DNA from: a virus
Length of the DNA stretch: 64,000 nucleotides
Virus record (IMG/VR): IMGVR_UViG_3300022744_000001
Location: 66,022 to 130,021 of that record
Reading direction: 5' to 3' (one strand)
The position numbers were made by a program, and so were the translations under genes. The notes below the pieces were generated by a model that saw only the letters and a program-made list of their open reading frames with translations, was not told where the DNA came from and searched no databases. This document shows, piece after piece, positions 43,253-63,064 of this stretch (within the stretch, counting starts at the first letter, position 1; the number at the start of each line of letters is the position of its first letter).

Positions 43253-43560
43253 CCATGAGCGAAGAACCCGACGTCAAGTTGATCAAGCACACGGGGGAGT
43301 GCGACCGCCCCGACGACCCGAGCTACCCTTGGAAGCTCGAGGCCAGCATGAGCCCGCCCCAGTTCATGACCGTGGCCTTCATTGGCATCCACGGGGGCTC
43401 CGAAGACATCGTAGCCCGAGGCAAGACCAAGGAAGCGCTCGAGGCGTGGTACAAGGAAAAGCTGGGCGACCACCCAAGGATGCGACGTGCGACCCTGACC
43501 GGCCCCGACGGGGTGACCATCGACCTCCGCGCCAAACCTACGAGTTCACCAGGTCAGTGA
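43249..43560 (+). CDS. hypothetical protein
   Basis: ATGA overlap. Confidence 0.45.
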   Translation: MTMSEEPDVKLIKHTGECDRPDDPSYPWKLEASMSPPQFMTVAFIGIHGGSEDIVARGKTKEALEAWYKEKLGDHPRMRRATLTGPDGVTIDLRAKPTSSPGQ

Positions 43561-43879
43561 GACTGGGACGCTCGAACGCCCGGTCCAAATCGTCCAGCCA
43601 CTTCATGAGCCAGCCCGCCGCACAGTGGAGAGGGCTCGTCCCCTGATAGAGCGTCCTGGGAGCCACCCAGCGCCCATCCTCGCCCCGAACCGGTGCTTCC
43701 CCCAGGAGAAGGCTGATCGCGTTCACCGCGTCCGCCTCGCTGAACGCAGGGCCCGGGGGAAGGGTCTTGAGCATCCCCACCGTCGTGTTGCAACGAGGGC
43801 AGATGACAGCTGTCCCGCGAAGCTGGAGGTCTTCATCGCACTGGGGGCACTGCCCCGCATCAATGAACGTTTGGTGCAT
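43538..43879 (-). CDS. zinc-ribbon protein (CPQCDEDL...CPRCNT)
   Basis: M2. Confidence 0.55.
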   Translation of the reverse strand: MHQTFIDAGQCPQCDEDLQLRGTAVICPRCNTTVGMLKTLPPGPAFSEADAVNAISLLLGEAPVRGEDGRWVAPRTLYQGTSPLHCAAGWLMKWLDDLDRAFERPSLTDLVNS

Positions 43880-43888
43880 GGCGGGAAG

Positions 43889-44236
43889 CTACACCGGGAA
43901 GGGCTTCGGGACCACCGGCTCGATGTGAACGCCGTCATACTCACGAACGTAACGGAACCGGTGCTTGTGCTCGTGGATGAACCTCCGCATGTAGACCCAG
44001 CAATCGTGCCACTCGTACTCCGCCGTCTTGGGGTTGTCGCGGTCGCGGTATTCGCGGAAGAGAAACGATAGGGTTTGGAATGCCCCGAGCGCTTCCCTCT
44101 GCTTCTCGAACTCGAAACACAGGGCGTCTTTCCAAAGGTCCCCTGGAGTGACGATAGGGCTACCCACGAAGATGCCGAGGCGAAACCGGGTCGCGTAGTT
44201 CGTTGGGACCATGTAGAGCGTCGCAGGGGTAGCCAT
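43889..44236 (-). CDS. hypothetical protein (115 aa)
   Basis: M2. Confidence 0.55.
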   Translation of the reverse strand: MATPATLYMVPTNYATRFRLGIFVGSPIVTPGDLWKDALCFEFEKQREALGAFQTLSFLFREYRDRDNPKTAEYEWHDCWVYMRRFIHEHKHRFRYVREYDGVHIEPVVPKPFPV

Positions 44237-44475
44237 GCCCCGAGTACACCGGTGCTATTCGGACACCGGGAGGGTTCGCCGACTCGCTCGAGCCCGGAGC
44301 CGCTTCCACTTCCTGCGGCCACGAGCCACATGCGTTGCGTTGCACCCAGCACCTGGGTTTGCACTCTCGTACCGAGGCCCATGCTCGGTACGCTTGGTGC
44401 CAGACCGTCGTGGGTTCGTCTTGTTACTCAAGGGCAGCTCCCTCCCAGCTCTGACACCACCGGTGTAGTCCCCAG

Positions 44476-44953
44476 CATGATTCGTAGAGTCACGGTTCGC
44501 AAAAAGCCCCACGAGGCATCCTCGCTCGCCAAGCTCCTTCTGCTCGACGTGACCGATGCCGCGCCCCTCTACGACATCACGCCGTTCGGAGCCTTCCGCA
44601 CCGACGACAAGGGCCGCCCCGAGTTCATGAAGGGCCGCCGATGCTACGTGGGCCTGAGCCCGATTCGAAGCGCCAAAGCCCTCGACACCATGCTGTCCCA
44701 GCTGATCTACCAAGCCGCAAGGTGGGTCCGCCGCTACACCAAAGCGAGTGACCCGGACGCGAACTTCAACACCTTTGCCGAGGTGAGCGCCAAATCGGGC
44801 CGGTACGAGGAGTACGAAATCTTCACGGAAGCCTTCCCCGAAGAGATCGGCAGGCTTGTGCACAGACCAGGATCGTGGCTCTATGGCGCGGTCATCTACG
44901 ACCCGTGGAGACTTTCCGTGGTGGAACACGGGAAGAGGGGAAAGAAATCATGA
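44476..44953 (+). CDS. hypothetical protein (159 aa)
   Basis: M2. Confidence 0.5.
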
Positions 44954-45513
44954 CCACACGAAGAGAGTTCCTCACCGCCCTGGCCGCTACGGCCGCCCTC
45001 CCGCTCCTGCCCGCCGCCGGAGAAGCCCAGCCTGCTACCCGTGTCCTCACACGGGTGGTTGCGTTCGGGGAAATCACGACGTGGGAACAGGGAACGCCTT
45101 GGCTTTTCATTGGCTCCGAGGGGGAGAACATCTGCGCGGCCACGGGGCCAACGCCCCTGTTCATCCCCGTGTTCAACATCGTGAGCGTGTCGAACAACAT
45201 CCCTCTCTCGCAAGAGAAGGTCTTGGCCGCCGCGGCTGACCGAGCCAGGGTCCTGGTCGAGCGCGGAAAAGAAGCCTTCCCCGGGAAAGACCTCACGCTC
45301 CGGGCCGTGGTCACCGACGTGCTTCGGCTCCAGAAAACCGCCATCTTGTTCTGGCCGGATCGCGAAGAGCGCATCGAGTCCCCACTCGACACAGTCGCGG
45401 TCAAGCTCGGCCTCGCCGTCGCCCCCTCAGCGAACAACGACTGGACGCAGAACGAGCCCGTCCGCTTCGCAGAGAACCCGGTGGTTCAGGCGATTCGAGC
45501 GGCCCTGGCCTGA
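44950..45513 (+). CDS. secreted protein with twin-arginine (Tat) signal peptide (TRREFLTALAATAALPLLPAAGEA)
   Basis: RREFL motif + hydrophobic core + AxA-like site; ATGA overlap. Confidence 0.55.
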   Translation: MTTRREFLTALAATAALPLLPAAGEAQPATRVLTRVVAFGEITTWEQGTPWLFIGSEGENICAATGPTPLFIPVFNIVSVSNNIPLSQEKVLAAAADRARVLVERGKEAFPGKDLTLRAVVTDVLRLQKTAILFWPDREERIESPLDTVAVKLGLAVAPSANNDWTQNEPVRFAENPVVQAIRAALA

Positions 45514-45538
45514 AACCACTTATGGTGTCAGAGGTGGC

Positions 45539-45829
45539 ATGGAAACGAAGATCGCTGACTGTACCGTGGTCGGATTCCGTGAAAGCCGAGACCTGCACTG
45601 GGAGTACGACGAGACACGTACCTACGTGAAACGTATTACGCCCGTCCCAGGGAGCGACAAAGCGTTCCTCTCCCTCATGCTCGGAGACCGTGTCGTCGAA
45701 GTCCAACTCAAGACCGAAGACATCGACCCCGTCCTCGACTGGCTCAACCAACAGCGGATGGCGAAGATGCCCCAAACACCGTCGCTCGGAAGCGAAGAGG
45801 CCGACCTCCTCGCCGCCCTCAAGGCGTGA
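45539..45829 (+). CDS. hypothetical protein (96 aa)
   Basis: AGAGGTGGC RBS. Confidence 0.5.
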   Translation: METKIADCTVVGFRESRDLHWEYDETRTYVKRITPVPGSDKAFLSLMLGDRVVEVQLKTEDIDPVLDWLNQQRMAKMPQTPSLGSEEADLLAALKA

Positions 45830-46334
45830 CCCCAAACCCCTGCTCGTAGACGAGCTGAAACCCGGTTGGGAACGCCGCCACCGAGACGGGACTCCAAAGG
45901 TAATGACGGCCGTCCACGTAGAGAAGCCGGTCCGCCTGGGGCATCTTCTCAAACCCCGCCTCGAGCATCGCCGCGTACTCGGGCGCATGCTGGACCTCGA
46001 TGATGTTCCCCTCCTTGACCAGGAAGGTCCCAAAAGGCTTCCCGTGGACACGGACAGGGTAACGACGCGTCCCCAGGTCCACCGCCCCTTCCAGAGTCGG
46101 CTGAGCCCGTTCGCCAGGGATAGAGACGCCACGGAACTCGTCGAGGCTGACCGCCACGGTGGGGTCCTGGGGCTCTCGGAAGACCAGCTCGATGTACGTC
46201 CCCGGCGAGACAAGCCCGCCCAGCTCGAATAGCTCCTGAGCCGCTACGGCTCGAGACGCCTCAGCGACTCGGAGCTGGTGCTTGACCCGAGCCACGAACT
46301 GGGCATTGCTCTCCATCATCCACGGCATGAACAT
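45819..46334 (-). CDS. hypothetical protein (171 aa)
   Basis: M2. Confidence 0.55.
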   Translation of the reverse strand: MFMPWMMESNAQFVARVKHQLRVAEASRAVAAQELFELGGLVSPGTYIELVFREPQDPTVAVSLDEFRGVSIPGERAQPTLEGAVDLGTRRYPVRVHGKPFGTFLVKEGNIIEVQHAPEYAAMLEAGFEKMPQADRLLYVDGRHYLWSPVSVAAFPTGFQLVYEQGFGVTP

Positions 46335-46342
46335 GAGCAGAG

Positions 46343-46696
46343 CTACACCGGGGAGACGCCGTCGAAGATCACCACGAGCTTGTAGTCCTGGTTCGAAGCA
46401 CGCCGTTCCACTTCGATGCTGGCCGCTCCAATCACCATCTTCCGCCGTCGCACCTCAGCGAGGAGCCGGTCCACGAGGAGCTTGACCTTGGACTCGACCT
46501 GCGCCTTGAACGCATCCCCGTAAGCCGCGGGCATCCGACCCGTCTCCATCTGCCGAACCTCCCGCCCGTTGAACCACGCCCAGTCGAGCACGGTGGCATT
46601 CCAAGGCCCAAGGACATGAGCGATACGGAACTCGGGGACGTCGAGCATAAGCCGAGCCAGGACCGTCCAAGCTTCAGTCTTGAGGTCGAACATCAT
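46343..46696 (-). CDS. hypothetical protein (117 aa)
   Basis: M2 located inside 3' end of upstream CDS. Confidence 0.55.
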   Translation of the reverse strand: MMFDLKTEAWTVLARLMLDVPEFRIAHVLGPWNATVLDWAWFNGREVRQMETGRMPAAYGDAFKAQVESKVKLLVDRLLAEVRRRKMVIGAASIEVERRASNQDYKLVVIFDGVSPV

Positions 46697-46890
46697 GCCC
46701 CCGAGCTACACCGGCGTACGAGGACAGCCCCACCACCGATGCCCAGGTGCACAGCCTGACCCTCCTCGAGCCCCTGTAGCTCGAGAACCTCACCCGGGTC
46801 GAGGTCCGGATTCTCCGCCAAGAAGTCCTCGAGCAGGACAGGGGTAGGGGAGCCGGTGAGGTCGGAGAGGTCGAGAAGGACCTGTGTCAC
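46693..46890 (-). CDS. small acidic protein (GTG start)
   Basis: GTGA stop-start overlap. Confidence 0.3.
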   Translation of the reverse strand: MTQVLLDLSDLTGSPTPVLLEDFLAENPDLDPGEVLELQGLEEGQAVHLGIGGGAVLVRRCSSGA

Positions 46891-47243
46891 GGCTTCCACC
46901 CCTTGGGAGCCTTCCACCCCGCGGCCAGGGCCGTCTTGGCCCACTCGGGCATCGGCCGGTCATGCTTCAACGCCGCACGGGCAAGGGTGAGAGCGGCTCG
47001 AACCTCCTTGTTCGTCTCCCAGTAGAAGCCGAACGAGTCCCGCTGGACACCGGGGAAATCCTTCACGGCTCGAGACGCCGCCCAGTGCTCCCACTCGTCA
47101 CGGTCCCACTTGGGGTTCGCTTCCCCCACGCCGTCGGTCACGTCCTGGCCCAAGTACCCGCCCAGGTCGTCATCCATCTGCCACTGGATGCGAAACTTGT
47201 ACCCGTCATCGTCAATGACCAATGTCGCTTTTTCCGTACTCAC
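46887..47243 (-). CDS. hypothetical protein (GTG start, GAGTGAGGAGAAG RBS)
   Basis: RBS + overlap. Confidence 0.5.
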   Translation of the reverse strand: MSTEKATLVIDDDGYKFRIQWQMDDDLGGYLGQDVTDGVGEANPKWDRDEWEHWAASRAVKDFPGVQRDSFGFYWETNKEVRAALTLARAALKHDRPMPEWAKTALAAGWKAPKGWKP

Positions 47244-47482
47244 GACTTCTCCTCACTCTCCGCGCCCAGAATCTCGTTCATCTCCCGGAGCAAGTTCACC
47301 TCCGCCGAGAGCACATCGATGTGGGCCGCGTTCGCCAACATCCGCGTGTCCAGGCTCCCACCCTCCTTCAGGTTCTCCTGAGCCCGTCGGACATTGGTCG
47401 CCAATGTCTCGAGCGCATCCGCCAGGGCCGTCGTCTTGCTCGTGAGCCGAGTCTTTGTCATCCGCCTCGCAAACGCCGTCAT
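47240..47482 (-). CDS. hypothetical protein, first gene of a five-gene minus-strand operon
   Basis: M1 + GAGGAGAAG RBS. Confidence 0.55.
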   Translation of the reverse strand: MTAFARRMTKTRLTSKTTALADALETLATNVRRAQENLKEGGSLDTRMLANAAHIDVLSAEVNLLREMNEILGAESEEKS

Positions 47483-47570
47483 GACATCTTCTCCTCATCC
47501 CCGTAACGCGCCAGAGCCCAAGACCCTATACAATCTTGATTTTCTCCGCACCTCGCCTACGCTGGCAAGC

Positions 47571-47837
47571 ATGAGTGCTGAGAAAACCCTAATCATGTTC
47601 GAGTTCATCCCGGAAGAGGTCTTTTTCTTCGAGCTTCCCGGCGACCTGTCGCGGTTCCACGACGTGTACGTCAACAAGGTCATCCCCAAAGGCAGCGGGC
47701 CAGAGGTCAAGAAGCTCCAGAACGAGCTGAACGATTTCATGTTCGACGACTCGGGCATCTTCCGCTTCGAAGAGAAGAAGATCCAGGTGCCGACCAAAGA
47801 CTGGACCCACTTCGTCCGGTGCGGGTTCCTTCTCTAG
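47571..47837 (+). CDS. hypothetical protein, possibly leaderless
   Basis: TTGATT-N16-TACGCT sigma70-like pair ending 7 nt before ATG. Confidence 0.4.
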   Translation: MSAEKTLIMFEFIPEEVFFFELPGDLSRFHDVYVNKVIPKGSGPEVKKLQNELNDFMFDDSGIFRFEEKKIQVPTKDWTHFVRCGFLL

Positions 47838-47950
47838 GAGTACGTTTTACGTACTCTACCTGACATTTTGCTCACTCCCCCTTCGCCTCTGGCCAGAAAG
47901 TCTGGTATTTACGCTGCACTCTGTTGTAGTGCAGCGTACGGAGGTGGGAA
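47838..47950. promoter_or_regulatory. two palindromes (7-bp GAGTACG stem; 12-bp perfect TACGCTGCACT/AGTGCAGCGTA) before lower-GC two-gene cassette
   Basis: seen directly. Confidence 0.45.
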
Positions 47951-48742
47951 ATGAAGGCGGTTGAGGTTGGAGACTATGGGTATGTTGTTGGTCTAAAAGG
48001 GAAATTCAAGGACAAGGTCGTTTATTACGACGATGACGATGATAACGAGACGAAGATCATCGTGTACCCCGGCTCGATAGTGGAAGGGTACTCCATCGTG
48101 CCTCGAGCGTCCTTCAGGCCCGCCTCGATTGGCGAGGTCCTGCTTCATGAGCAGGAGGCGGGGCTTTACACGGGGTCCCCTTTGTTTCCTCGTCGCCCTC
48201 AAGCGGACGCTTCGACCGTCGCCACACATCTGACCCTTCGTCTGCTCCTCAAAGCCAGCGGACGTGACAGCTACGAGAACAACGACCCCCTGGAAACGTT
48301 TCCCCCGGACAGTGCCGAGGGTTTGCTTGTCGAGGGAATCTCCAAGCTCTTTCTCACCGTCCTACGGCCTACCATCAAAACCATCTGTTCCGGGTGCCTC
48401 TCCAGCATCCATACCGAAATCCTTTCCTCCCTCAAGACCGTAGGGCTCGCCAACACCTCATCGGAGGAAGCCCTCAGTCAGCCCGAGGTCTTTACCCAGC
48501 TCTGGCAAACCGCTTGGGACGACGCCATTCGTGAGTGGGCGAGCAACATCCACCCGTTGTTCGAGCCCGGGGAAAAAGCCGTGAAGGACGGGCTCAATAC
48601 CTCCTGGCTCAAAATCACGGACGTCGATACAACCAGGGCTCTTTACACCTTCGAAGATGGTGCAATCGTTTCCTGGGACCTAGTCGAGGTTGCCACCATC
48701 CACCAACGCAAGCTGGATAAACAACTCGAGGCAATGTCATGA
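47951..48742 (+). CDS. hypothetical protein (263 aa), lower GC
   Basis: GGAGGTG RBS. Confidence 0.55.
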   Translation: MKAVEVGDYGYVVGLKGKFKDKVVYYDDDDDNETKIIVYPGSIVEGYSIVPRASFRPASIGEVLLHEQEAGLYTGSPLFPRRPQADASTVATHLTLRLLLKASGRDSYENNDPLETFPPDSAEGLLVEGISKLFLTVLRPTIKTICSGCLSSIHTEILSSLKTVGLANTSSEEALSQPEVFTQLWQTAWDDAIREWASNIHPLFEPGEKAVKDGLNTSWLKITDVDTTRALYTFEDGAIVSWDLVEVATIHQRKLDKQLEAMS

Positions 48743-48993
48743 GCTGGGCGATTTCCGAGACCCCACCACCCACCGAGTCGAACTCTTCATTCACGAACCA
48801 TCACGGGGAGCAGTGGTGGTGTCGTGTCCACGAGGGCAGCTTTTATGTGTGGGGTACGGACGTCAGGCCGCAGGTGGCAAGCACGAAAACGGCGAGGCCA
48901 GAAAAGCTTCCCTGGGTGATGACCGAAAGCGAGTCTCTCTGGGTTCAAGCCAATCTGCTTGTCTTCGAGCAACACCTGAAAGCGCTGGTCTAG
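48739..48993 (+). CDS. hypothetical protein
   Basis: ATGA overlap. Confidence 0.45.
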   Translation: MSWAISETPPPTESNSSFTNHHGEQWWCRVHEGSFYVWGTDVRPQVASTKTARPEKLPWVMTESESLWVQANLLVFEQHLKALV

Positions 48994-49244
48994 TCCACGA
49001 ACTCCACGTCACCCAAGTACGGCGCCCCCGCGACCTTCGCCAGCTTCAAGCGGGGACCCCAAGAGTCGTCGAAGGTCACCGACGCCACCGTGTAGACCTG
49101 CCCCGCCTCGAGCCCGATCTCCACGTACTCCCTCGACCTGAGCCGGACCCGCTTCCCGGTCACCGCTCGGGTCGTCTCCGCTCGCAAGTCCTCGAGCTTC
49201 TTCTGGGTCGCAAGGATGAGGTCCACCAGCGGGTGCTCAGACAT
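48990..49244 (-). CDS. hypothetical protein
   Basis: internal ATG. Confidence 0.4.
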   Translation of the reverse strand: MSEHPLVDLILATQKKLEDLRAETTRAVTGKRVRLRSREYVEIGLEAGQVYTVASVTFDDSWGPRLKLAKVAGAPYLGDVEFVD

Positions 49245-49602
49245 GGCCAGTGACCCGGGTAGGGAACGATAGGCCAAGGGTGCGAAGTGCCCACGACAAG
49301 GGACGACGAGAGTCGTGAGCCAACCCCACCGTGACGTACTCCGCACCAGGGTCCCGGACCGGCACGAAGAGAAATCCGCCCGTCAGCCCCAGCTTCCCCA
49401 ACCGCACCCCCAGCCACTGCTCCAGCCGGTCCGCCTTCACCCGCTGCAACGGCACCAGGGCGTTCTCCCCGTACCGCCCCCGCCCACCCGTCTGCCGAAC
49501 CCACCGACCCCGCTTCGGCACCCAGATGTGCACGTACGGGCTCTTCAGCATGTGGTAGGCCGGGACAATCCCTCCCGTGATGTCGTCGTAATCGACCCTC
49601 AT
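49237..49602 (-). CDS. hypothetical protein
   Basis: internal ATG. Confidence 0.4.
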   Translation of the reverse strand: MRVDYDDITGGIVPAYHMLKSPYVHIWVPKRGRWVRQTGGRGRYGENALVPLQRVKADRLEQWLGVRLGKLGLTGGFLFVPVRDPGAEYVTVGLAHDSRRPLSWALRTLGLSFPTRVTGHV

Positions 49603-49607
49603 GGGAG

Positions 49608-49949
49608 CTAGATCCGCTCCAGGGTGCAGAACTTGAACTCGCGCCGCTGAATCTCCGGAGCCGCGTTGAACCAAACGCAGCTGGCCTCAGTCCCTTCCAC
49701 ACGCTCCACGACCATCTCGACACTCGACGCCTTCAGCTTGACCCGGTTCCCCGGCTCGAACACCCCCAGGTGCCCCGCCTTCTGCACCAGATTCACAGCC
49801 ACCGGAGCCACCACACTCCACGTGTGCTCCCCGTGCTTCTCCCACACCACGAACAAGTCCCCCGTCTCCGCACTGTTGATGCTCTCCACCACCATGCTGG
49901 GACTGCCCGACTTCAACTGCACCACGTCCCCAGGCCCGATTTCGCTCAT
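49608..49949 (-). CDS. tandem DUF2158/YodC-like small domains
   Basis: GDVVQLKSGSPSMVV and GNRVKLKASSVEMVV repeats. Confidence 0.55.
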   Translation of the reverse strand: MSEIGPGDVVQLKSGSPSMVVESINSAETGDLFVVWEKHGEHTWSVVAPVAVNLVQKAGHLGVFEPGNRVKLKASSVEMVVERVEGTEASCVWFNAAPEIQRREFKFCTLERI

Positions 49950-49994
49950 GCAAAGTCCTCCAGGGCGGGAAGTACACCGGGCCGGAAGTGAAAT

Positions 49995-50205
49995 CGGGAC
50001 TGCTACCTGACGGGACTGCTACCCGACCCACTCCCCGGCCCCGCAGGGGCCCCCGGAAAAGGTGCGGTGGGGTTTGCAGGGACCAACGGGCCAGAATTTT
50101 CGAACCGGGGGCCCCTCGGAAAAGCCGGGTCCCGTTTTGGGGGACCACCGGGCCAGAATTAAAAAGACCCCCACCCCCTCCGGCCTGAAAAAGGCGTGAG
50201 GGGGT
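49995..50205. repeat. non-coding repeat cluster: 13-bp direct repeat CGGGACTGCTACC x2; ~60-bp imperfect tandem repeat x2 (core GGGACCAMCGGGCCAGAATT); 7-bp GC hairpin; followed by AT-richer 100 bp
   Basis: seen directly. Confidence 0.6.
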
Positions 50206-50329
50206 AACGCCACCGCAACATATTCGTACGCCAACTGAATGAGGGGTTTTTCGAGTCAAGACCCGTGCCAACACAATAATCAAGCGGTTTTTCTTGCGCC
50301 CTTTTAATTTCGTCGGAGGTACCCACACT

Positions 50330-50560
50330 CTACCTACCCACGACAACCTCACGCTCACCCACGACACAGACCCGGTGTTTGACTACACGCTCGCCACCGT
50401 TGGCATAGTGGGTACCGAGCGCTTCCCACAGTGCGACCTCGGGGGAGATGGCACGGACCTTGTGGCCGGTACCTGTGAGGGTATGGTCTCGCCCGCTCAA
50501 GAGGGTGACATGGTAGGTGAGGGTCATGGGGGAGTAGGGTTGAGTGACTGGCACTGGGGT
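50330..50560 (-). CDS. hypothetical protein (76 aa)
   Basis: GC3-rich frame. Confidence 0.35.
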   Translation of the reverse strand, partial: TPVPVTQPYSPMTLTYHVTLLSGRDHTLTGTGHKVRAISPEVALWEALGTHYANGGERVVKHRVCVVGEREVVVGR

Positions 50561-50576
50561 AGTAGACATACACCCA

Positions 50577-57383: not shown

Positions 57384-57437
57384 GCCAGTATAGAACCACC
57401 CACCCTCGCGCGTTCATAGAGCACAAGGAGCAAGTCA

Positions 57438-57524
57438 TGGCCAAGCGCAAGACCCCCACGTTCATCATCGAGGAGAATGTCGGCAACGGCCACCACGACC
57501 CCTCGCGCGTTCATAGGGCATGAG
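57438..57524 (+). CDS. 28-aa ORF between a full M1 copy (with added AAGGAG RBS) and a second GCGCGTTCAT half-motif
   Basis: seen directly; coding status uncertain. Confidence 0.3.
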
Positions 57525-57804
57525 CAAGAAAGCCCCAGTCCAGTTCGGCCGCGGTACCAACAAGGTGATTGGCAAGACCCGCACCATCATCTCGGACGAC
57601 AAGGAGTACATCTCCAAGTGCGGCGAGTACAAGATTGAGGGTCGCCACTTCGTCCTCCCCTACTCCTCCTACGCCTACACCCTCTACAAGATGGTGGGCG
57701 GGCAATGGGTCCGCCTCGGCTCCGGAGGCGAACACGACAAGCTCGCGGACGCCAAGTTCGCCGCTTGTGCCGACCGTGACCCCAACTACGAACCCACCGT
57801 CTGA
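57520..57804 (+). CDS. hypothetical protein (94 aa)
   Basis: half-M1 (GCGCGTTCATAGGGC-ATG). Confidence 0.55.
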   Translation: MSKKAPVQFGRGTNKVIGKTRTIISDDKEYISKCGEYKIEGRHFVLPYSSYAYTLYKMVGGQWVRLGSGGEHDKLADAKFAACADRDPNYEPTV

Positions 57805-58335
57805 AGGGCCAACACTTCGACTCTGACCAAAAGGTTCGACCAACCCCTACCCGAATACCGCACAACCTCAAAAGTCAAACGAAAAGCGTGGGTACCTGAC
57901 CAGCACCAACCATGTCCGCAGGTAAATCCCGCACGCGGTAGTCAAGCACAATCCACAACCATTACGCTTTGTGGTCTCGGTACCTGACCATAGCTCGGTA
58001 CCTTGTCATCCGTGTGTTGTGGCCGGTGTACATACCTCCAAAGCTATACAAACCTCTAGGCACGGAAGTTGCAGAGAGGTTTTGGAACGGGTGGGGGTTT
58101 GGCAACGACCACAACGACACGACTTTAAAAGGACTTTGGCCCTTCGGGCCGGGTCGGTTTCGAGTCTTGTCCAGGTTGTGCAAACGGCCCTCCCCTGGGA
58201 CCTCTTTTGTCTGGAGTTGGTCCCCCGTCTCCACGGCACCACCTGGGCCTCTGGCGGGCCTTGGTTGTGCTCTTGGGGGTTTCTCCCCTGGGGGTTTCTC
58301 CCTTTGCTCCTATGGGGCTCTTCTGGGCGTGTCCT
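57805..58335. other. 530-bp apparently non-coding boundary region with GGTACCTGACCA x2 and TGGGGGTTTCTCCC x2 direct repeats and a GGCCC-TTC-GGGCC hairpin
   Basis: no convincing ORF; composition switches here. Confidence 0.4.
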
Positions 58336-59193
58336 TTACTTGGCTCGCTCCTGTTCTTCCTGGTCTCTCCGCAGGGCTTCTTGGACGTCTTCCCACCACT
58401 GTGTGGCTTGGTTGATGAAGGCGTCTTCGGCACCTTCTACCTGGTCGAATCCCGGGTACGTATTGACCTCTAGGAGTGTGGGGGGACCTTCCTTTGGGAC
58501 TTGGTAGTCGATGCCCACGACATCTAGGTTGAGCTTGTGGGCTGTGAGGGAGGCGTGGCTGAGGAGGGTGTGTCCTTTGGGGGTGGTGGGTTCGAGGGGG
58601 AGGGTTTCGATCGCGGCTTCGACATTCTTGCGCCAGTCGTGGCTGTGGTAGCGGAGGTGCCACGTGTGGGGGCCGATGATGAGGATGCGGTCGGAGGTTC
58701 CTGGGATGTAGGGTTCGACGAGGGTGTCGTCTGGGGCGGTGAAGGGGCCTTGGGAGAGGGCTTTATCTTCGCCGCAGTGGGAGTTGCTCCATTTGAAGAC
58801 GTGGGGGGCGGGGGTGGGCAGTTCGAGTCTGTGTCCTTGGGGGAGGAAGCCTCTGGGGACATGGGAGTTGGGGTTGGCCAGGAGGAGGGAGAGGACCCTA
58901 TCGTCGTGGGGCAGTGTGGGGCGGATGTTTGGGAACGTGGGGGTGTTGGCGAGGGCGAGTGCTCTTCTTGTCTGTTGGGCGTGGGGGAAGTAGCCGTAGT
59001 AGATGACCCCGTTTGGTTCGAGCCATCTTCCTGGGACGCGTTGGGACTCGATACGGACTTGGCCATCGAGGCTGTAGGCGGGGGGTGGGGCTGCGTAGTG
59101 GACGACTCGGGTGTTTTTGAGGCGGGTGCGGAGTTGGGCGTCGGTGGTGGGGTCGATGCCTATGCTGATGAGGAGGGGGTCGTTCGGGGTCAT
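58336..59193 (-). CDS. ATP-grasp family ligase-like protein
   Basis: C-terminal LLEVNTYPGF block typical of ATP-grasp; C-rich codons on strongly strand-skewed segment. Confidence 0.55.
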   Translation of the reverse strand: MTPNDPLLISIGIDPTTDAQLRTRLKNTRVVHYAAPPPAYSLDGQVRIESQRVPGRWLEPNGVIYYGYFPHAQQTRRALALANTPTFPNIRPTLPHDDRVLSLLLANPNSHVPRGFLPQGHRLELPTPAPHVFKWSNSHCGEDKALSQGPFTAPDDTLVEPYIPGTSDRILIIGPHTWHLRYHSHDWRKNVEAAIETLPLEPTTPKGHTLLSHASLTAHKLNLDVVGIDYQVPKEGPPTLLEVNTYPGFDQVEGAEDAFINQATQWWEDVQEALRRDQEEQERAK

Positions 59194-59229
59194 GGGGGAC
59201 GGTTTAGCACGGGCGGTGTAGCTAGGAGG

Positions 59230-59805
59230 ATGCGGATTTTCCTCAACGACGTGCGAATCGATGCCACAGGGGCCTACTATGAGAGTGGTTTTGTGTACTT
59301 CCGCGTCCCTGAAGGGCTTTATGAGCCTATGGTTTCGGTCCTTGTCGAGTTGGGCATGTGGCGACAGGGGCCGAAGTTCTGGGGGAGGCTAGCGGGGCCG
59401 CGGCTTGTGGTGGGCGGGATGGCTCGATGGGTTCTTCCGTATGCGTCGATGGGTTATCGGGACGACTGTCAGGTGGCGGATGGGGAGCGGGTGTGGCGGT
59501 TGCGGATGAACCGTGCTGGGAGTCTGGAGTGGGGCTGCACTTCGGACGACGTGGTTGTGCGTGAGGCGACTTGTGACGAGTGGGCGGTATTGCACCGGGG
59601 GAAGGTGGTGGGGATTGTGGACGACATGGGCAAGACGTTGGGGGATGTTTTGCGTGAGGCTCGGGGGCTGGTTCCTTGTCTGCCGGTGAAGCTCGAGTTC
59701 GTCTCTCCCCCCGTGGTCACGGCGGCGGATGGTCAGGTGTTTGTGATGGAGCGGGTGGGTGAGCCGGAGCCCCGGGTTTTGTCTCGGTTCGACTTGATCG
59801 GGTGA
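59230..59805 (+). CDS. hypothetical protein ending SRFDLIG
   Basis: M2 (GGTGTAGC-N7-ATG). Confidence 0.5.
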   Translation: MRIFLNDVRIDATGAYYESGFVYFRVPEGLYEPMVSVLVELGMWRQGPKFWGRLAGPRLVVGGMARWVLPYASMGYRDDCQVADGERVWRLRMNRAGSLEWGCTSDDVVVREATCDEWAVLHRGKVVGIVDDMGKTLGDVLREARGLVPCLPVKLEFVSPPVVTAADGQVFVMERVGEPEPRVLSRFDLIG

Positions 59806-59808
59806 GCG

Positions 59809-60354
59809 ATGCTGTACCAGGTCTACGACTTGAGGATGGGTCCGGTGGCGGGGTTTTACCTGCCTCCGGTGATGGGGCCGACGGGTCATGTTCGGGTGGT
59901 GAACAGTGCGGGGCTCTTTGAGCGGGGGTCGGCCTCTTACATCTTCGTCCGGGTGGACGGGGTGCAGTTCCGTGTGGACGGGACGTGGGGCATCTATCCT
60001 GGTGGGATGGGGGCGCCTGAGTTGGCCTTCACGGGGACGTACTCGGTTCCGGATCGTGTGGAGGCGGGGCTCACGTGGACGTTCACGGACTTCGGGTGGG
60101 AGACCACGTTCATGGGGCATGAGCTTGTGGTGGCGTTGAGCCCGGACTTGGAGGACTCCTACATCTGGGTTGTCTGGTTTGCGGACACTCAGGTCGGTGG
60201 GCCGTATGGGTTGGGGCGGTCGGGGCTTTTCGAGCAAGCGAAGAAGGACGCCTATGCGTGGGCACGGCGTCTTGTTCTTGCGTTTGTGGAGGAGGCGGAC
60301 CCGTTTGAGGAGGTGCGGTCGGGTCTCGTCTCGAGGTTCGATTTGATCGGGTAG
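59809..60354 (+). CDS. hypothetical protein ending SRFDLIG
   Basis: GGGTGAGCG RBS; shares C-terminal SRFDLIG with preceding gene. Confidence 0.5.
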   Translation: MLYQVYDLRMGPVAGFYLPPVMGPTGHVRVVNSAGLFERGSASYIFVRVDGVQFRVDGTWGIYPGGMGAPELAFTGTYSVPDRVEAGLTWTFTDFGWETTFMGHELVVALSPDLEDSYIWVVWFADTQVGGPYGLGRSGLFEQAKKDAYAWARRLVLAFVEEADPFEEVRSGLVSRFDLIG

Positions 60355-60356
60355 GT

Positions 60357-60830
60357 TCAGCCTTGGCTGAGCGCGTGTTTGGCCCAGAAGTCTCTCGAGG
60401 CGACGAGTTCTTCCCAGGTTGCGATGGAGGGGTCACCGGGCTCCCTCGGTGCTGCGGGGCCGGGGTACACCGTATAGAGGACATGGGGTTGGCCATCGTG
60501 TGGGCCGATGACCATGGTCACCAGGTGTGTGGTCGTCGGTCCCAGCGTGGTCATGCGTGAGGCGTAGGGGCGACCTCCGCGGACGAAGTAGAAGGCGTTC
60601 TCGTTGGGGACCGCTTGGTCTCCCACGGTGGGGCCGCGGAGCTGGCAGGCGTACGCTTTGGGGCTCGTGAAGGTGAGGATGAGGGGCGGGAACGGTGTGA
60701 ACGTTCTTGGGGTCCTCTGCCAAGCCTCGAAATGCTCTTGGGCGAGTTCGAGGATGCGTGGGCGCTCCTCCGCGGCAAAGTGGTCGAGGTGCGTGTCCGT
60801 GTGGATGGTCAGCGTCTTGTTCATGCTCAT
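60357..60830 (-). CDS. hypothetical protein
   Basis: ORF track; start ambiguous (60830/60893). Confidence 0.35.
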   Translation of the reverse strand: MSMNKTLTIHTDTHLDHFAAEERPRILELAQEHFEAWQRTPRTFTPFPPLILTFTSPKAYACQLRGPTVGDQAVPNENAFYFVRGGRPYASRMTTLGPTTTHLVTMVIGPHDGQPHVLYTVYPGPAAPREPGDPSIATWEELVASRDFWAKHALSQG

Positions 60831-60915
60831 GTGACGTGCGGGGGCGGTGGCTTCTGACAGCTCTCGGTGTATTTGATCCGGCAATCTCTTCATGGGATAG
60901 TGGGGCCCTGGTATT

Positions 60916-61395
60916 ATGCAGGCAATTATACAGGCAGTTTTCGCACGTGCGGCGGATTTGGTTCAGGAGCGATGGGTTCCGGTTCGTGACCGGAAGGACC
61001 AGTTTGTGGGCGAGGTTGGCCAATGCCCGCTCGTGACGGTGCTCGGTGAGGTTGGTTGTCGGCCCCCTCGTGTGCCTGGTCTTGAGTCTCGAGGGCCTTA
61101 CGCGGCGTTCCAGCTGTGGGCGCAGCTGGCTCGCGGGTATCTCATGGGTGACGACGAGTTTCGGGCCGCGCTCTATCGATCCGCGTTGGCCTATGCTCCG
61201 GTGGCTATTGACCATGCGGTCTCGGTGGGCCACGTCGGTGCGGTTCGTGCGCTTCGGGCCCGGTTTGAGGCGTTGGATTCTCCTTTTCAGATCAAGCAGC
61301 AAGTACGAGCGGTTATGGCCTTCCCGCTCTACTGCGACCTTCACGTTTTCCGGTCCCCCGGTGAGGCGGCTGCTTACTTGCGGAGGGCGTTCTAG
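60916..61395 (+). CDS. hypothetical protein; 5' end lies in a 12-nt tandem repeat ATTATGCAGGCA/ATTATACAGGCA
   Basis: ORF track. Confidence 0.4.
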   Translation: MQAIIQAVFARAADLVQERWVPVRDRKDQFVGEVGQCPLVTVLGEVGCRPPRVPGLESRGPYAAFQLWAQLARGYLMGDDEFRAALYRSALAYAPVAIDHAVSVGHVGAVRALRARFEALDSPFQIKQQVRAVMAFPLYCDLHVFRSPGEAAAYLRRAF

Positions 61396-61802
61396 TGGCG
61401 GCTCGAAAGAAGGCGCCGGGTCCGGCTCTGGACGATGCTGCGGCGTGGCGGAAAGAGGCGTTGAAGCAGAAGAAGGGGCTTCGGAAGCTCACGGACACGG
61501 TTCAGGGGTTTCTTGCCCGGTTCGATCTGCTCATGAAGGAGCCGTCCACGGTGGAGCGGGGCAAGAAGCTGGCTTTGCTCGCCAATCAGCTCGAGCTGGC
61601 GAACGATTCGGCTCGGCACTTCACCTTGGATCTTCCGTTGAAGCCGAAGGCTCCCAGGGAGTCGCGCATTGTGGAGGGGCCGCCCATGGACGACGACCCT
61701 CTTTGCCAGCACTGTGGGCATGGGCAGTCGAATCACGCCTATGGTCACGACGACTGCTTCCGCTGCGACCGTGAGTGCCAGGAGTTCAAGGGGACCGGTT
61801 GA
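61395..61802 (+). CDS. hypothetical protein with C-terminal Cys/His zinc-binding cluster
   Basis: TAGTG stop-start overlap. Confidence 0.45.
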   Translation: MAARKKAPGPALDDAAAWRKEALKQKKGLRKLTDTVQGFLARFDLLMKEPSTVERGKKLALLANQLELANDSARHFTLDLPLKPKAPRESRIVEGPPMDDDPLCQHCGHGQSNHAYGHDDCFRCDRECQEFKGTG

Positions 61803-61861
61803 GTTCTACGACCTTGTGGGCCTCATAGGTCGCGTGGTCTCGAGAACGGGCCGGACAAAGA

Positions 61862-62014
61862 TCATGCCGGGTCGTTTTTGTCCTTCTCGGGGCCGAGGAG
61901 TTCGCGGCGGCGTTCCACGGCTCGCTTGAGGGCGTCGTTCGGGGCGGGTGGGTTCAGGAGGGCCTCGGCAAGCCGTGCTTGGTCCTCGGGGCTGAGCTTG
62001 ATTTCGTCTTCCAT
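61862..62014 (-). CDS. possible 50-aa DUF1778/TacA-like antitoxin-type ORF, no adjacent toxin
   Basis: MEDEIKLSPEDQARLAEALLNPPAPNDALKRAVERRREL; below ORF-track cutoff. Confidence 0.25.
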   Translation of the reverse strand: MEDEIKLSPEDQARLAEALLNPPAPNDALKRAVERRRELLGPEKDKNDPA

Positions 62015-62035
62015 GGCGCAATCCTAGCAGAAAGG

Positions 62036-62065
62036 CCAGGGTCCCGGGGCTCATCGGGACCCTGG
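62036..62065. terminator. 10-bp GC hairpin CCAGGGTCCC/GGGACCCTGG
   Basis: seen directly. Confidence 0.45.
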
Positions 62066-62089
62066 CGTGCACATTCCCATCTACTAGCA

Positions 62090-62172
62090 CTACGGCCCCA
62101 GGGTTCCAAATTGTGACAGGGGCGGTTTAGAATTGTTGAAGCTCGTGCGTTCTTGGGGCAAAGGGGGCGTTC
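62090..62172 (+). promoter_or_regulatory. M1 variant (TTAGAATT...GCGTTCTT...ATG)
   Basis: consensus-like. Confidence 0.45.
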
Positions 62173-63062: not shown

Positions 63063-63064
63063 TC

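What the first reader, a model, noticed from the sequence alone, without database searches (positions are those of the whole stretch)
58336..60360. Compositionally distinct, strongly strand-skewed segment carrying an ATP-grasp ligase and two paralogs ending SRFDLIG
Across this segment the plus strand is markedly G/T-rich, so minus-strand genes use C-ending codons. This is unlike the rest of the window. The segment is bounded by a 530-bp repeat-containing non-coding stretch (57805-58335). The ATP-grasp enzyme is paired divergently with two unknown proteins sharing an identical C-terminal heptapeptide. Together this suggests a horizontally acquired peptide or metabolite ligation cassette.
Basis: seen in the sequence. 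Interest (0 to 1): 0.55.

Follow-up and report, generated by a model that had tools for sequence, protein, structure and literature searches.

The report
Strand-skewed island beside a non-coding spacer
A 3.5-kb stretch of a very large phage-like genome has one DNA strand heavily enriched in G and T whichever way its genes point, which looks like a mutational scar from that strand being repeatedly single-stranded rather than the mark of an imported gene cassette.

Summary
From 58,101 to 61,600 the plus strand is extremely G/T-rich: (G+T-A-C)/N is 0.28 over 3.5 kb, against -0.016 +/- 0.042 elsewhere. The island is wider than reported.

The bias is strongest at fourfold-degenerate sites. It has the same absolute polarity in plus- and minus-strand genes and decays rightward to about 63.5 kb. 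It is therefore strand-specific and mutational, not codon- or donor-derived.

The minus-strand gene at 58336-59193 is a real ATP-grasp protein. Its AlphaFold model has pLDDT 93.8, and the fold matches synapsin and RimK. It belongs to an uncharacterised, mostly Myxococcales family. Those homologues show no skew and share no conserved neighbours.

The two "paralogs" are unrelated ORFans. They share only the C-terminal SRFDLIG, encoded with different synonymous codons. A third unrelated protein 29 kb away ends in SRFDMIE. The tail resembles the sliding-clamp-binding C-termini of T4 and RB69 proteins.

A horizontally acquired ligation cassette is not supported. My best reading is a footprint of single-strand exposure anchored at the 530-bp spacer, from origin-proximal replication or an R-/D-loop. 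Outward read-through transcription is the main rival. A weaker island of opposite polarity lies at 43.5-50 kb.

The parts
58101..61600 (.). Island R: a continuous run in which the plus strand is extremely G/T-rich
   Evidence: Keto skew exceeds 0.15 without a break, peaks at 0.41 and averages 0.284, against -0.016 +/- 0.042 elsewhere. The strand-specific component at fourfold sites is S_GC +0.58 and S_AT -0.72.
57805..58335 (.). A 530-bp non-coding spacer between two convergent genes. The base composition flips from C/A-rich to G/T-rich at about 58,000.
   Evidence: It holds no coding-like ORF and no called gene. In 100-nt windows the keto skew runs -0.32, -0.18, then +0.14, +0.02, +0.26. Repeats are GGTACCTGACCA x2, CTCGGTACCT x2 and TGGGGGTTTCTCCCC x1.9. 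There is no Rfam match, no sigma-70-like promoter and no DnaA box. The RNA fold z-scores are -2.8 and -2.2, which the two halves' complementary composition may explain.
58336..59193 (-). ATP-grasp protein of 285 aa, intact, with a strongly C/A-biased coding strand
   Evidence: It has 40 homologues, with E-values down to 4e-82. It keeps all 34 invariant residues of the family. The family profile matches RimK in the PDB at 1.4e-7, and 24 of 28 members match PF08443. The AlphaFold model has pLDDT 93.8. Foldseek gives synapsin at TM 0.73 and RimK at TM 0.65. Third-position GC skew is -0.70 and AT skew +0.71.
59230..59805 (+). ORFan of 191 aa ending ...EPEPRVLSRFDLIG; start codon uncertain
   Evidence: This is the best coding frame of the six, with GC1/2/3 of 0.68/0.45/0.73. 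An exhaustive HMMER search found only the protein itself plus one marginal hit. The ENA and Logan gene callers did not call it.
59809..60354 (+). ORFan of 181 aa ending ...RSGLVSRFDLIG
   Evidence: It was called by outside gene callers. GC1/2/3 is 0.63/0.46/0.80. It has no homologue among 5.8 billion clusters. The single-sequence AlphaFold model is unusable, at pLDDT 39.
59782..59805 (+). Tail 1: SRFDLIG plus stop (TCT CGG TTC GAC TTG ATC GGG TGA)
60331..60354 (+). Tail 2: SRFDLIG plus stop (TCG AGG TTC GAT TTG ATC GGG TAG). The peptide is the same as tail 1, but three codons differ synonymously.
   Evidence: (repeat family D14).
60357..60893 (-). Minus-strand ORF of 178 aa (157 aa from the start used by outside callers). 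Its skew has the same absolute polarity as its plus-strand neighbours.
   Evidence: Plus-strand bases at fourfold sites are G 51, C 23, A 3, T 12. It has only a weak match to phrog_23674, E = 0.003.
60916..61395 (+). ORF of 159 aa inside the island; the coding signal is weaker than for its neighbours
61395..61802 (+). ORF of 135 aa in the decaying tail of the island
   Evidence: S = +0.56.
61862..62014 (-). ORF of 50 aa with a weak TacA1 match. It is on the minus strand but shows the same absolute skew.
   Evidence: S = +0.52.
29390..30031 (-). Third, unrelated ORFan of 213 aa ending ...PEPTPEPVRSRFDMIE
   Evidence: Its tail codons are TCC CGA TTC GAC ATG ATA GAG. It has no homologue and no Pfam match.
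43500..50000 (.). Island L: a weaker island of opposite polarity, in which the minus strand is G/T-rich in genes of both orientations
   Evidence: All twelve genes have negative S, from -0.02 to -0.74. For the bin, S_GC is -0.23 and S_AT +0.22.
49950..50576 (.). A second long non-coding spacer, on the inner edge of island L
   Evidence: It holds no coding-like ORF and carries short direct repeats. It is not homologous to the 58-kb spacer.

Best explanation
The window comes from a very large (at least 448 kb) phage-like or other extrachromosomal genome. I read the 58.1-61.6 kb segment as native DNA carrying a strand-specific mutational footprint.

Proposed mechanism: the plus strand to the right of the 530-bp spacer is repeatedly left single-stranded. 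It loses C (deamination to U, read as T) and A (deamination to hypoxanthine, read as G), so it drifts towards G and T. The exposure is anchored at the spacer. I think it most likely reflects origin-proximal replication. Either forks leave this region with one fixed polarity, or a persistent R-loop or D-loop displaces the plus strand. The effect would fade where forks of either direction replicate the DNA. The weaker island of opposite polarity at 43.5-50 kb would be the other arm.

The ATP-grasp gene is a stand-alone gene of bacterial (Myxococcales-type) ancestry. It has stayed here long enough for the bias to saturate its synonymous sites and to shift its protein towards Pro, His, Thr and Gln, while every family-invariant residue survived.

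The two neighbouring ORFs are unrelated lineage-specific genes. Their shared tail, S-R-F-D-[L/M]-I-[G/E]-COOH, also sits on a third protein elsewhere. It is best read as a short docking peptide, most plausibly for a sliding clamp, and not as a substrate tag for the ligase.

Shown: the skew, its independence from gene orientation, its concentration at synonymous sites, its gradient, the ATP-grasp fold, and conservation of the tail at the peptide level.

Inferred: single-strand exposure as the cause, its link to replication, and the function of the tail.
For: 1. Same absolute polarity in both gene orientations. At fourfold sites the plus-strand G/C/A/T counts are 114/13/3/24 for the ATP-grasp gene (-), 60/17/6/27 for the 191-aa ORF (+), 67/14/1/21 for the 181-aa ORF (+) and 51/23/3/12 for the 157-aa ORF (-). 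Splitting the bias into a strand part and a codon part gives S_GC +0.58 and S_AT -0.72, with a codon part near zero (-0.07 and 0.00). In the 0-43 kb region S is near zero and only the codon part is seen.

2. The bias is strongest at third positions and present at all three. For the ATP-grasp gene, coding-strand GC skew at positions 1/2/3 is -0.07/-0.28/-0.70. Its homologues give +0.21/-0.04/-0.11 and +0.32/0.00/-0.01.

3. The protein composition has shifted in the predicted direction: P z = +4.3, H +3.8, T +3.5, Q +3.1, V -2.7, G -2.2, relative to 28 homologues. All invariant residues are kept.

4. There is a gradient. Per-gene S runs 0.76, 0.62, 0.74, 0.38, 0.48, 0.56, 0.52, then 0.22, 0.01, 0.35, 0.37, 0.27, 0.02 (reference sd 0.15). 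Spearman rho against position is -0.60 to -0.66, p = 0.0005 to 0.002.

5. The left edge is sharp and lies inside non-coding DNA, where codon usage cannot be the cause.

6. An island of opposite polarity lies at 43.5-50 kb. All twelve genes there, of both orientations, are negative. It too abuts a long non-coding spacer.

7. Loss of C and A from one strand is the known signature of single-stranded DNA, as on the mitochondrial H strand. The rate of C to U deamination is more than 100-fold higher in single-stranded DNA (PMC3269012, read).

8. G+C in the island (0.59-0.65) equals that of the flanks.
Against: - No replication protein, DnaA box or clear AT-rich unwinding element lies at the spacer. 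G+C dips only to 0.55.
- The cumulative GC-skew minimum of the window is tied between about 50.4 kb and about 58 kb.
- The two genes just left of the spacer are C3-rich. Other genes of the same codon class on the opposite strand are too, so they do not prove a mirror image.
- The central block at 50.6-57.8 kb shows no consistent strand component.
- Replication skew in bacteria is normally constant along a replichore. It does not normally decay over a few kb, so a local explanation is needed on top.
- Among single-step amino-acid replacements in the ATP-grasp protein, G>A on its coding strand dominates (16 of 35) but T>C was not seen. A control homologue also shows frequent G>A. The transition-only spectrum is therefore not demonstrated.
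- No related genome was found for comparison.
- Phage identity is itself only probable, because many of the PHROG hits come from a single ORF.
Confidence: 0.42

Rival explanations
1. Transcription-associated asymmetry. Strong promoters in or near the two spacers fire outward. Long, abundant transcripts, possibly forming R-loops, keep the non-template strand single-stranded: the plus strand on the right and the minus strand on the left. The ATP-grasp gene and the 157-aa gene lie antisense within that read-through.
For: - Most genes in each island point outward: 10 of 13 on the right and 8 of 12 on the left.
- The bias is highest next to the spacer and decays over a few kb, as promoter-proximal GC skew and R-loops do in other systems (PMC3787257, listed).
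- G-runs on the plus strand are about twice as frequent in the island.
- The polarity on both sides fits outward transcription as well as it fits replication.
Against: - The codon, or gene-orientation, component in the island is near zero. The dominant transcript would therefore have to run antisense through the ATP-grasp gene, which directly abuts the spacer.
- No sigma-70-like promoter was found between 56.5 and 61.6 kb, and the genome's own 17-nt upstream motif is absent from the spacer.
- To my knowledge, a fourfold-site S_GC of 0.58 is far above the transcription-linked skews reported for bacteria.
Confidence: 0.25
2. One reading: the segment is a recently acquired foreign block, a ligation cassette, and its composition reflects a donor genome with strong strand bias.
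For: - The ATP-grasp family is otherwise found in bacterial contigs, mostly Myxococcales, and was not found in IMG/VR. That gene was therefore probably captured.
- The left boundary of the island is sharp.
- The neighbouring genes have no relatives in this collection or elsewhere.
Against: - Homologues of the only traceable gene are unskewed.
- G+C and the codon-position pattern match the host genome.
- The right edge is a gradient through several more genes.
- An opposite-polarity counterpart exists 8 kb to the left.
- No integrase, transposase, tRNA or flanking repeat was found.
- There is no conserved gene neighbourhood.
Confidence: 0.08
3. Functional pairing. The ATP-grasp enzyme acts on the shared C-terminal tail of its neighbours, in the way RimK, tubulin-tyrosine ligase or LysX act on C-terminal carboxylates, adding an amino acid or other amine. 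This concerns function only and would not explain the skew.
For: - The gene is divergent from, and 36 nt away from, two tail-bearing ORFs.
- The closest sequence and fold matches include RimK and ArgX, enzymes that modify protein C-termini.
- The tail is under peptide-level selection: the residues are the same but the codons differ.
Against: - The bacterial homologues have no tail-bearing or conserved neighbours.
- A third tail protein lies 29 kb away.
- The tails end in Gly or Glu after a hydrophobic core, unlike the acidic tails used by RimK, TTL or LysX (my own knowledge of those systems).
- The family falls far below the curated RimK cut-offs.
Confidence: 0.07

Closest known systems
Strand compositional asymmetry from single-strand exposure (mitochondrial H strand, bacterial leading strand)
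   Same: One strand is depleted in C and A and enriched in G and T. The bias is strongest at fourfold sites, independent of gene orientation, and graded with position (mechanism as reviewed in PMC3269012 and PMC4182315).
   Different: Here the bias is confined to a few kb on either side of a central block in a genome of at least 448 kb, not spread across a genome or replichore. The amplitude (fourfold S_GC 0.58, S_AT -0.72) is closer to mitochondrial than to bacterial values. No replication mode is known for this element.
RimK-type ATP-grasp ligases (ribosomal protein S6:glutamate ligase; PF08443)
   Same: The ATP-grasp fold covers the whole protein, and the E-x-N metal and ATP motif region aligns (LLEVNTYPG against MEVNASPG). 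The family profile matches RimK structures at 1.4e-7.
   Different: Identity is only about 20%, and the sequence match covers the C-terminal half only. Scores are far below the curated family cut-offs, at 33 bits against 143. Synapsin C domains are slightly better structural matches. The family has its own invariant motifs (HCG, DWRKN) and an unknown substrate.
Sliding-clamp-binding C-terminal motifs (T4 gp43 ...SLDFLFG, T4 gp55 ...SLDFLYEAND, RB69 polymerase ...SLFDMFDF; bacterial QL[S/D]LF)
   Same: A short hydrophobic and acidic peptide sits at the extreme C-terminus of otherwise unrelated proteins of one phage-like genome. In two of the three it follows a Pro/Glu-rich linker. S-R-F-D-M-I matches RB69 S-L-F-D-M-F at 4 of 6 positions. 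SRFDLIG and SLDFLFG both begin with S and end with a C-terminal G (concept from PMC2988020 and PMC9690074).
   Different: The resemblance rests on 6-7 residues and was not tested statistically or structurally. No clamp or polymerase gene is visible in the 69 kb available. Arg replaces the Leu or Gln position. The carrier proteins have unknown function.
Graspetide (microviridin-type) RiPP clusters
   Same: An ATP-grasp gene lies next to small ORFs that share a short peptide. Graspetide cyclases (PsnB, MdnC) appear among the fold matches.
   Different: The neighbours are 181-191 aa long, not short leader-core precursors. The shared peptide has no Thr/Ser-Asp/Glu cross-link pattern. The fold matches are weaker (TM 0.53-0.56). 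There is no conserved neighbourhood.

Membership tests
ATP-grasp superfamily | Three-domain ATP-grasp fold | tested here: met
   The AlphaFold2 model has pLDDT 93.8 and pTM 0.90. Foldseek against the PDB gives 388 hits at E <= 0.001. The top 50 listed are all ATP-grasp proteins: synapsin (TM 0.73), RimK (TM 0.65), Ddl, ArgX, PsnB and MdnC.
ATP-grasp superfamily | Conserved nucleotide- and metal-binding residues (a Lys in the central domain; D...E-x-N in the C-terminal domain) | tested here: met
   K134, E160, D229, E242 and N244 are invariant in 28 family members and present in the window protein. The E-x-N region aligns with RimK. Assigning roles to the residues is by analogy only.
RimK family (PF08443 / TIGR00768) | Score above the curated family threshold | tested here: not met
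   The window protein has no Pfam hit at E <= 0.01, and its best ATP-grasp hit is 14.7 bits against a cut-off of 31.4. In NCBIfam the window protein has no hit. Its homologues reach at most 33 bits against a cut-off of 143.4. In Pfam, 24 of 28 homologues do match PF08443 at E <= 0.01.
RimK family (PF08443 / TIGR00768) | Ligates glutamate to the C-terminus of ribosomal protein S6 | not testable with these tools
   This needs biochemistry.
Graspetide RiPP cluster | An adjacent short precursor peptide with a leader and a Thr/Ser-Asp/Glu core, in a conserved cluster | tested here: not met
   The neighbours are ORFans of 181-191 aa. No neighbour is conserved across four homologous loci.
Horizontally acquired genomic island | Atypical G+C or codon-position pattern relative to the host genome | tested here: not met
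   G+C is 0.59-0.65 inside the island and 0.55-0.66 in the adjacent 57-64 kb. The GC1/2/3 values of the island's genes are typical of the window. Only the strand skew differs.
Horizontally acquired genomic island | Discrete boundaries, with mobility genes, a tRNA or flanking repeats | tested here: not met
   The left edge is sharp but the right edge is a gradient. No integrase or transposase family was found. The only tRNA is at 34.6 kb. There are no flanking direct repeats.
Horizontally acquired genomic island | Absent from close relatives | tested here: inconclusive
   No related genome was found in the phage records, IMG/VR or by pattern scans.
Replication origin | Switch in the sign of strand-specific composition | tested here: met
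   S_GC / S_AT change from -0.10 / +0.11 (50.4-58 kb) and -0.23 / +0.22 (43-50.4 kb) to +0.58 / -0.72 (58-61.6 kb). The flip lies within non-coding DNA at about 58,000. Caveat: the cumulative-skew minimum is tied with about 50.4 kb.
Replication origin | Initiator-binding repeats, DnaA boxes or an AT-rich unwinding element | tested here: inconclusive
   There are no DnaA boxes near the locus. Only two- to three-copy short repeats are present. G+C dips to 0.55. Iteron-like repeats (3 x 18 nt) lie 1 kb to the left, at 56,821-56,884.
Replication origin | Demonstrated initiation of DNA synthesis | not testable with these tools
   This needs marker-frequency or nascent-strand data.
Sliding-clamp-binding motif | A short hydrophobic and acidic peptide at the extreme C-terminus, shared by unrelated proteins | tested here: met
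   Three unrelated proteins end in SRFDLIG, SRFDLIG and SRFDMIE, with different codons. Compare T4 SLDFLFG and SLDFLY..., and RB69 SLFDMFDF.
Sliding-clamp-binding motif | Binds the hydrophobic cleft of a clamp encoded by the phage or its host | not testable with these tools
   No clamp gene lies in the accessible 69 kb. This needs co-folding or binding assays.

The most novel reading that the evidence does not exclude
The spacer at about 58 kb would be the start site of an asymmetric, strand-displacing (R-loop or D-loop primed) replication mode in a phage-like genome of about 450 kb. This would leave a mitochondrion-like deamination gradient over several kb, strong enough to remodel the amino-acid composition of a conserved enzyme. 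In addition, the origin-proximal ORFans, plus one distant protein, would carry a lineage-specific C-terminal peptide, S-R-F-D-[L/M]-I-[G/E], that tethers them to the replisome's sliding clamp.
Probability: 0.15. Interest if true: 0.7.

Novelty: new variant of a known kind. Interest (0 to 1): 0.42.

Why it matters
If the reading is right, local fourfold-site strand bias could mark where and how giant uncultivated phage-like genomes start replication. That would give a sequence-only handle on a process that cannot yet be studied in culture.

It also shows that a local mutational bias can push a conserved enzyme's composition far enough to drop it below every standard family threshold. This is a practical warning for annotation and for composition-based calls of horizontal transfer.

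The shared C-terminal peptide is a testable candidate for a new docking motif.

None of this is established. On present evidence it is a clear, unusual compositional feature with an inferred cause.

Tried and rejected
- DNA search of 56-63 kb against 50,697 phage records: no match.
- Relatives of the ATP-grasp protein, the 181-aa ORF and three flanking proteins in IMG/VR: none. A comparison with genomes lacking the segment was therefore impossible.
- Homology searches for the 181-aa, 191-aa and 213-aa proteins: only the proteins themselves.
- Back-translated tail pattern (TCN CGN TTY GAY HTN ATH GGN TRR): 2 hits in viral contigs and 78 in metagenome contigs. All were at the number expected by chance and nearly all sat on ORFs too short to be genes. 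The window's own contig is evidently not in that collection.
- Single-sequence AlphaFold of the 181-aa protein: pLDDT 39, unusable.
- Rfam search, sigma-70 promoter and terminator scans, and a DnaA-box scan of the spacer and island: nothing above chance.
- RNA folding of the spacer: z = -2.8 and -2.2. I do not treat this as evidence of an RNA gene, because the C/A-rich left half and the G/T-rich right half pair by composition alone.
- G-quadruplex motif count: enriched only as the composition predicts.
- Amino-acid replacement spectrum, to test for a transition-only bias: G>A is in excess but T>C is absent, and the control homologue is similar, so the result is inconclusive.
- The idea that the C3-rich genes at 57,036-57,804 mirror the island: rejected as safe evidence, because genes of the same codon class on the other strand are also C3-rich.
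- The idea that the two long spacers are copies of one element: rejected, with no similarity beyond 13 nt.
- PADLOC search of the six proteins tested (ATP-grasp, 191-aa, 181-aa, 178-aa, 159-aa and 213-aa) plus two ATP-grasp homologues: no defence-system family.


Full report
**What is at the coordinates**

ORF listing and sequence reading give this layout:

| Coordinates | Strand | Feature |
|---|---|---|
| 57,520-57,804 | + | 94-aa gene |
| 57,805-58,335 | . | 530-bp gap |
| 58,336-59,193 | - | 285-aa ORF |
| 59,230-59,805 | + | 191-aa ORF, 36 nt beyond the previous ORF and divergent from it |
| 59,809-60,354 | + | 181-aa ORF |
| 60,357-60,893 | - | convergent 178-aa ORF |
| 60,916-61,395 | + | 159-aa ORF |
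| 61,395-61,802 | + | 135-aa ORF |

- The exact 285-aa protein is on record on a 448,224-bp ENA contig and on a 10-kb Logan contig.
- Both contigs are 100% identical to the window over 57,492-64,000, so the sequence is not an assembly artefact.
- The window consists mostly of small ORFs without known domains.
- It holds a few phage-associated families (Tad2-like, phage ProQ-C-like) and one tRNA.
- I call it a huge-phage-like element. Seven of the 24 PHROG family hits come from a single ORF, so phage identity is probable but not proven.

**The skew is real and extreme**

- In 300-nt windows from 58,350 to 61,200, plus-strand GC skew is +0.18 to +0.51 and AT skew is -0.17 to -0.43. AT skew reaches -0.59 at 58,200-58,499.
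- The combined index (G+T-A-C)/N stays above 0.15 in one unbroken run from 58,101 to 61,600.
- It averages 0.284 over those 3.5 kb, against -0.016 +/- 0.042 (maximum 0.107) for all 3.5-kb windows left of 57 kb.
The right-hand change point is near 61,290, and a tail extends beyond it.

**The skew is strand-specific, not gene-specific**

I called genes with a self-trained codon model and with outside gene calls. I then counted bases at fourfold-degenerate sites in plus-strand coordinates:

| Gene | Strand | G | C | A | T |
|---|---|---|---|---|---|
| ATP-grasp | - | 114 | 13 | 3 | 24 |
| 191-aa ORF | + | 60 | 17 | 6 | 27 |
| 181-aa ORF | + | 67 | 14 | 1 | 21 |
| 157-aa ORF | - | 51 | 23 | 3 | 12 |

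Averaging plus- and minus-strand genes separates a strand component S from a codon component:

| Region | S_GC | S_AT |
|---|---|---|
| 0-43 kb | -0.03 to +0.04 | -0.01 to +0.07 |
| 43-50.4 kb | -0.23 | +0.22 |
| 50.4-58 kb | -0.10 | +0.11 |
| 58-61.6 kb | +0.58 | -0.72 |
| 61.6-64.1 kb | +0.27 | -0.72 |
| 64.1-69.2 kb (from locus L004) | +0.14 | -0.18 |

- In the 0-43 kb region only ordinary codon bias is seen (C3 > G3, T3 > A3).
- In the island the codon component is near zero (-0.07 and 0.00).
- Per gene (reference sd 0.15), seven consecutive genes of both orientations between 58.3 and 62.0 kb have S from +0.38 to +0.76. S then declines.
- Spearman rho against position is -0.60 to -0.66, p = 0.0005 to 0.002.
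- The left edge lies inside the non-coding gap. In 100-nt windows the index goes from -0.32 and -0.18 (57,800-57,999) to +0.14, +0.02 and +0.26 (58,000-58,299).

**A weaker counterpart of opposite polarity**

- Between 43.5 and 50.0 kb all twelve genes, four on the plus strand and eight on the minus strand, have negative S (-0.02 to -0.74). The strongest sits next to another long non-coding gap at 49,950-50,576.
- The layout is: island L (minus strand G/T-rich), spacer, a 7-kb central block, spacer, island R (plus strand G/T-rich). Both islands fade outward.
- The two spacers are not homologous.
- Caution 1: the window's cumulative-skew minimum is tied between about 50.4 kb and about 58 kb.
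- Caution 2: the C3-rich genes at 57,036-57,804 follow a codon class also seen on the other strand. They are not safe evidence of a mirror image.

**The ATP-grasp gene**

- Alone, the window protein gives only sub-threshold Pfam hits.
- It has 40 homologues, with E-values down to 4e-82 and up to 55% identity.
- It keeps all 34 invariant residues of a 28-member alignment, including K134, HCG139-141, DWRKN186-190, D229 and E242-V-N244.
- 24 of 28 members match PF08443, and the family profile finds RimK structures at 1.4e-7.
- The AlphaFold model is confident (pLDDT 93.8, pTM 0.90).
- It superposes on synapsin C domains (TM 0.73), RimK (TM 0.65), ArgX, Ddl and graspetide cyclases.
- Scores are far below the curated RimK cut-offs, and no defence family matches.
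- It is therefore a bona fide ATP-grasp protein of an uncharacterised subfamily.
- Named homologues are in Myxococcales or "delta proteobacterium" genome bins, plus one weak partial match in an Alphaproteobacteria bin. None is in IMG/VR.
- Four bacterial loci share no neighbouring gene.

**The skew arose here and was not imported**

- The homologues' genes are unskewed. Their third-position GC skews are -0.11 and -0.01 and AT skews -0.15 and -0.27. The window copy has -0.70 and +0.71.
- All three codon positions of the window copy are shifted the same way.
- Its protein is enriched in Pro, His, Thr and Gln (z = 3.1 to 4.3) and depleted in Val and Gly. This is what a C/A-rich coding strand predicts.
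- G+C and the GC1/2/3 pattern match the rest of the window.
- No mobility gene or insertion signature was found.
- Together with the gradient and the counterpart island, this argues against a recently imported block.

**The two "paralogs"**

- BLASTP finds nothing in common except the last nine residues.
- Neither has a homologue. The 181-aa protein was searched against 5.8 billion clusters. The 191-aa protein was searched exhaustively against 1.8 billion representatives and found only itself and one marginal hit.
- Both occupy the best coding frame of the six, with normal GC1/2/3, and they are tightly packed. I accept them as genes.
- The 191-aa ORF was skipped by two gene callers, and its start is uncertain because the AGGAGG directly abuts the ATG.
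- The shared heptapeptide is encoded as TCT CGG TTC GAC TTG ATC GGG in one and TCG AGG TTC GAT TTG ATC GGG in the other.
- A third unrelated ORFan at 29,390-30,031 (-) ends in ...PEPTPEPVRSRFDMIE, using TCC CGA TTC GAC ATG ATA GAG.
- The same peptide with different codons on three unrelated proteins shows that selection acts on the peptide.
- No other protein of the window carries it.
- Pattern scans of viral and metagenome collections returned only chance-level hits.

**What the tail resembles**

- T4 DNA polymerase ends in ...KASLDFLFG and T4 gp55 in ...SPSLDFLYEAND. I translated both from the T4 record.
- RB69 polymerase ends in ...KKASLFDMF, followed by DF (the final DF is from my own knowledge of the protein, as the printed alignment stops at residue 901).
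- These "hydrophobic and acidic" C-termini bind the gp45 sliding clamp, sit on flexible linkers and are interchangeable between proteins (PMC2988020).
- Bacterial clamp partners use QL[S/D]LF, often at the C-terminus (PMC9690074).
- S-R-F-D-[L/M]-I fits this pattern. Two of the three tails follow a Pro/Glu-rich stretch.
- This is a lead from resemblance only. No clamp gene lies in the accessible 69 kb.

**How it most likely works**

- Loss of C and A from one strand, strongest at synonymous sites and graded with position, is the known footprint of time spent single-stranded. C deaminates to U more than 100 times faster in single-stranded DNA, and A deaminates to hypoxanthine (PMC3269012).
- I therefore propose that the plus strand right of the 58-kb spacer, and the minus strand left of the 50-kb spacer, is preferentially exposed.
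- The exposure could arise because forks leave a nearby origin with fixed polarity, before replication by forks of either direction dilutes the effect. It could also arise because an R-loop or D-loop persists there.
- The main rival is outward read-through transcription from the spacers. It predicts the same polarity and a promoter-proximal decay. However, it requires the dominant transcript to run antisense through the ATP-grasp gene, and no promoter was found.
- There are no DnaA boxes and no initiator gene, so the origin reading is inferred, not shown.

**Verdict**

- The cassette and horizontal-transfer interpretation is not supported, apart from probable old capture of the ATP-grasp gene.
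- The feature is a new variant of a known kind: strand asymmetry tied to replication or transcription. It is unusual for its local confinement and its amplitude.
- It comes with a candidate docking peptide as a side finding.

Noticed in passing
window 19445-19461(-), 38851-38867(-), 51958-51974(-), 52274-52290(-), 53292-53308(-), 57403-57419(+), 57500-57516(+): A 17-nt motif, CCCTCGCGCGTTCATAG, occurs seven times at up to 2 mismatches, against 0 expected by chance. It always lies in the orientation of the gene downstream and ends 3 nt or about 15-18 nt before the start codon. The genes it precedes have the highest codon scores and strongly C-ending codons. It is probably a promoter or translation-start element of one expression class.
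   Followed up: partly
window 57492; L004 11703-12168: The 448-kb ENA contig carries 466 extra bases at this point, flanked by the motif above. They complete a small gene that is truncated in the window and add a 106-aa gene resembling a RecA fragment (Pfam RecA_N in the contig's gene table). Both outside contigs end within 150 nt of this site. It is likely a strain polymorphism or a collapsed repeat that breaks assemblies.
   Followed up: partly
window 56821-56884 and 56901-56951: Three 18-nt direct repeats at 23-nt spacing (TACCWTTCCTGTATACCG) sit beside a perfect 15-nt inverted repeat (GGCTGGCGCGTTCAC / GTGAACGCGCCAGCC). They lie in the gap where gene orientation diverges, beside an 81-aa ORF (56565-56810, -) whose N-terminus looks like a ribbon-helix-helix regulator by eye. 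This is an operator-like or iteron-like region.
   Followed up: no
window 49950-50576: A second long non-coding spacer carries short direct repeats (GGGACTGCTACCYGAC x2; GGGCCAGAATT x2). It lies on the inner edge of the opposite-polarity skew island and is not homologous to the 58-kb spacer.
   Followed up: partly
window 30232-30468 (-): A 79-aa ORF matches Pfam Multi_ubiq (PF14452) at E = 3.6e-6, above the gathering score. It lies two genes upstream of the third tail-bearing protein (29390-30031).
   Followed up: no
window, about 30822-33458 (+): One ORF in the window matches major vault protein domains: MVP shoulder at 2e-20, plus Vault repeats. The 878-aa ORF is the only one long enough, but I did not verify the assignment directly. 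It has no PHROG match.
   Followed up: no
window 23433-23807 (-): A 124-aa ORF ends in ...GTADDLPF. This resembles the acidic C-terminal tail of bacterial single-strand-binding proteins (DDDIPF, from my own knowledge). It has no PHROG family match.
   Followed up: no
window 60107-60124: Inside the 181-aa ORF there is an 18-nt stretch that matches 17 of 18 bases of the motif and start region of gene 57520 (CGTTCATRGGGCATGAGC). This may be a remnant of duplicated upstream sequence in an ORFan gene.
   Followed up: no
proteins P0004, P0005, P0007, P0008, P0010 (homologues elsewhere): Some homologues of the ATP-grasp protein are 388-441 aa long. P0004, P0005 and P0008 carry a conserved C-terminal extension of about 125 aa with no Pfam match. 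This fusion might hint at the family's function.
   Followed up: partly
window 9115-10152 (+): A 346-aa ORF gives seven strong PHROG matches (best 1.7e-67). It is probably the GAF-GGDEF diguanylate cyclase reported by the Pfam scan. A cyclic-di-GMP enzyme is an unusual cargo for a phage-like element.
   Followed up: no
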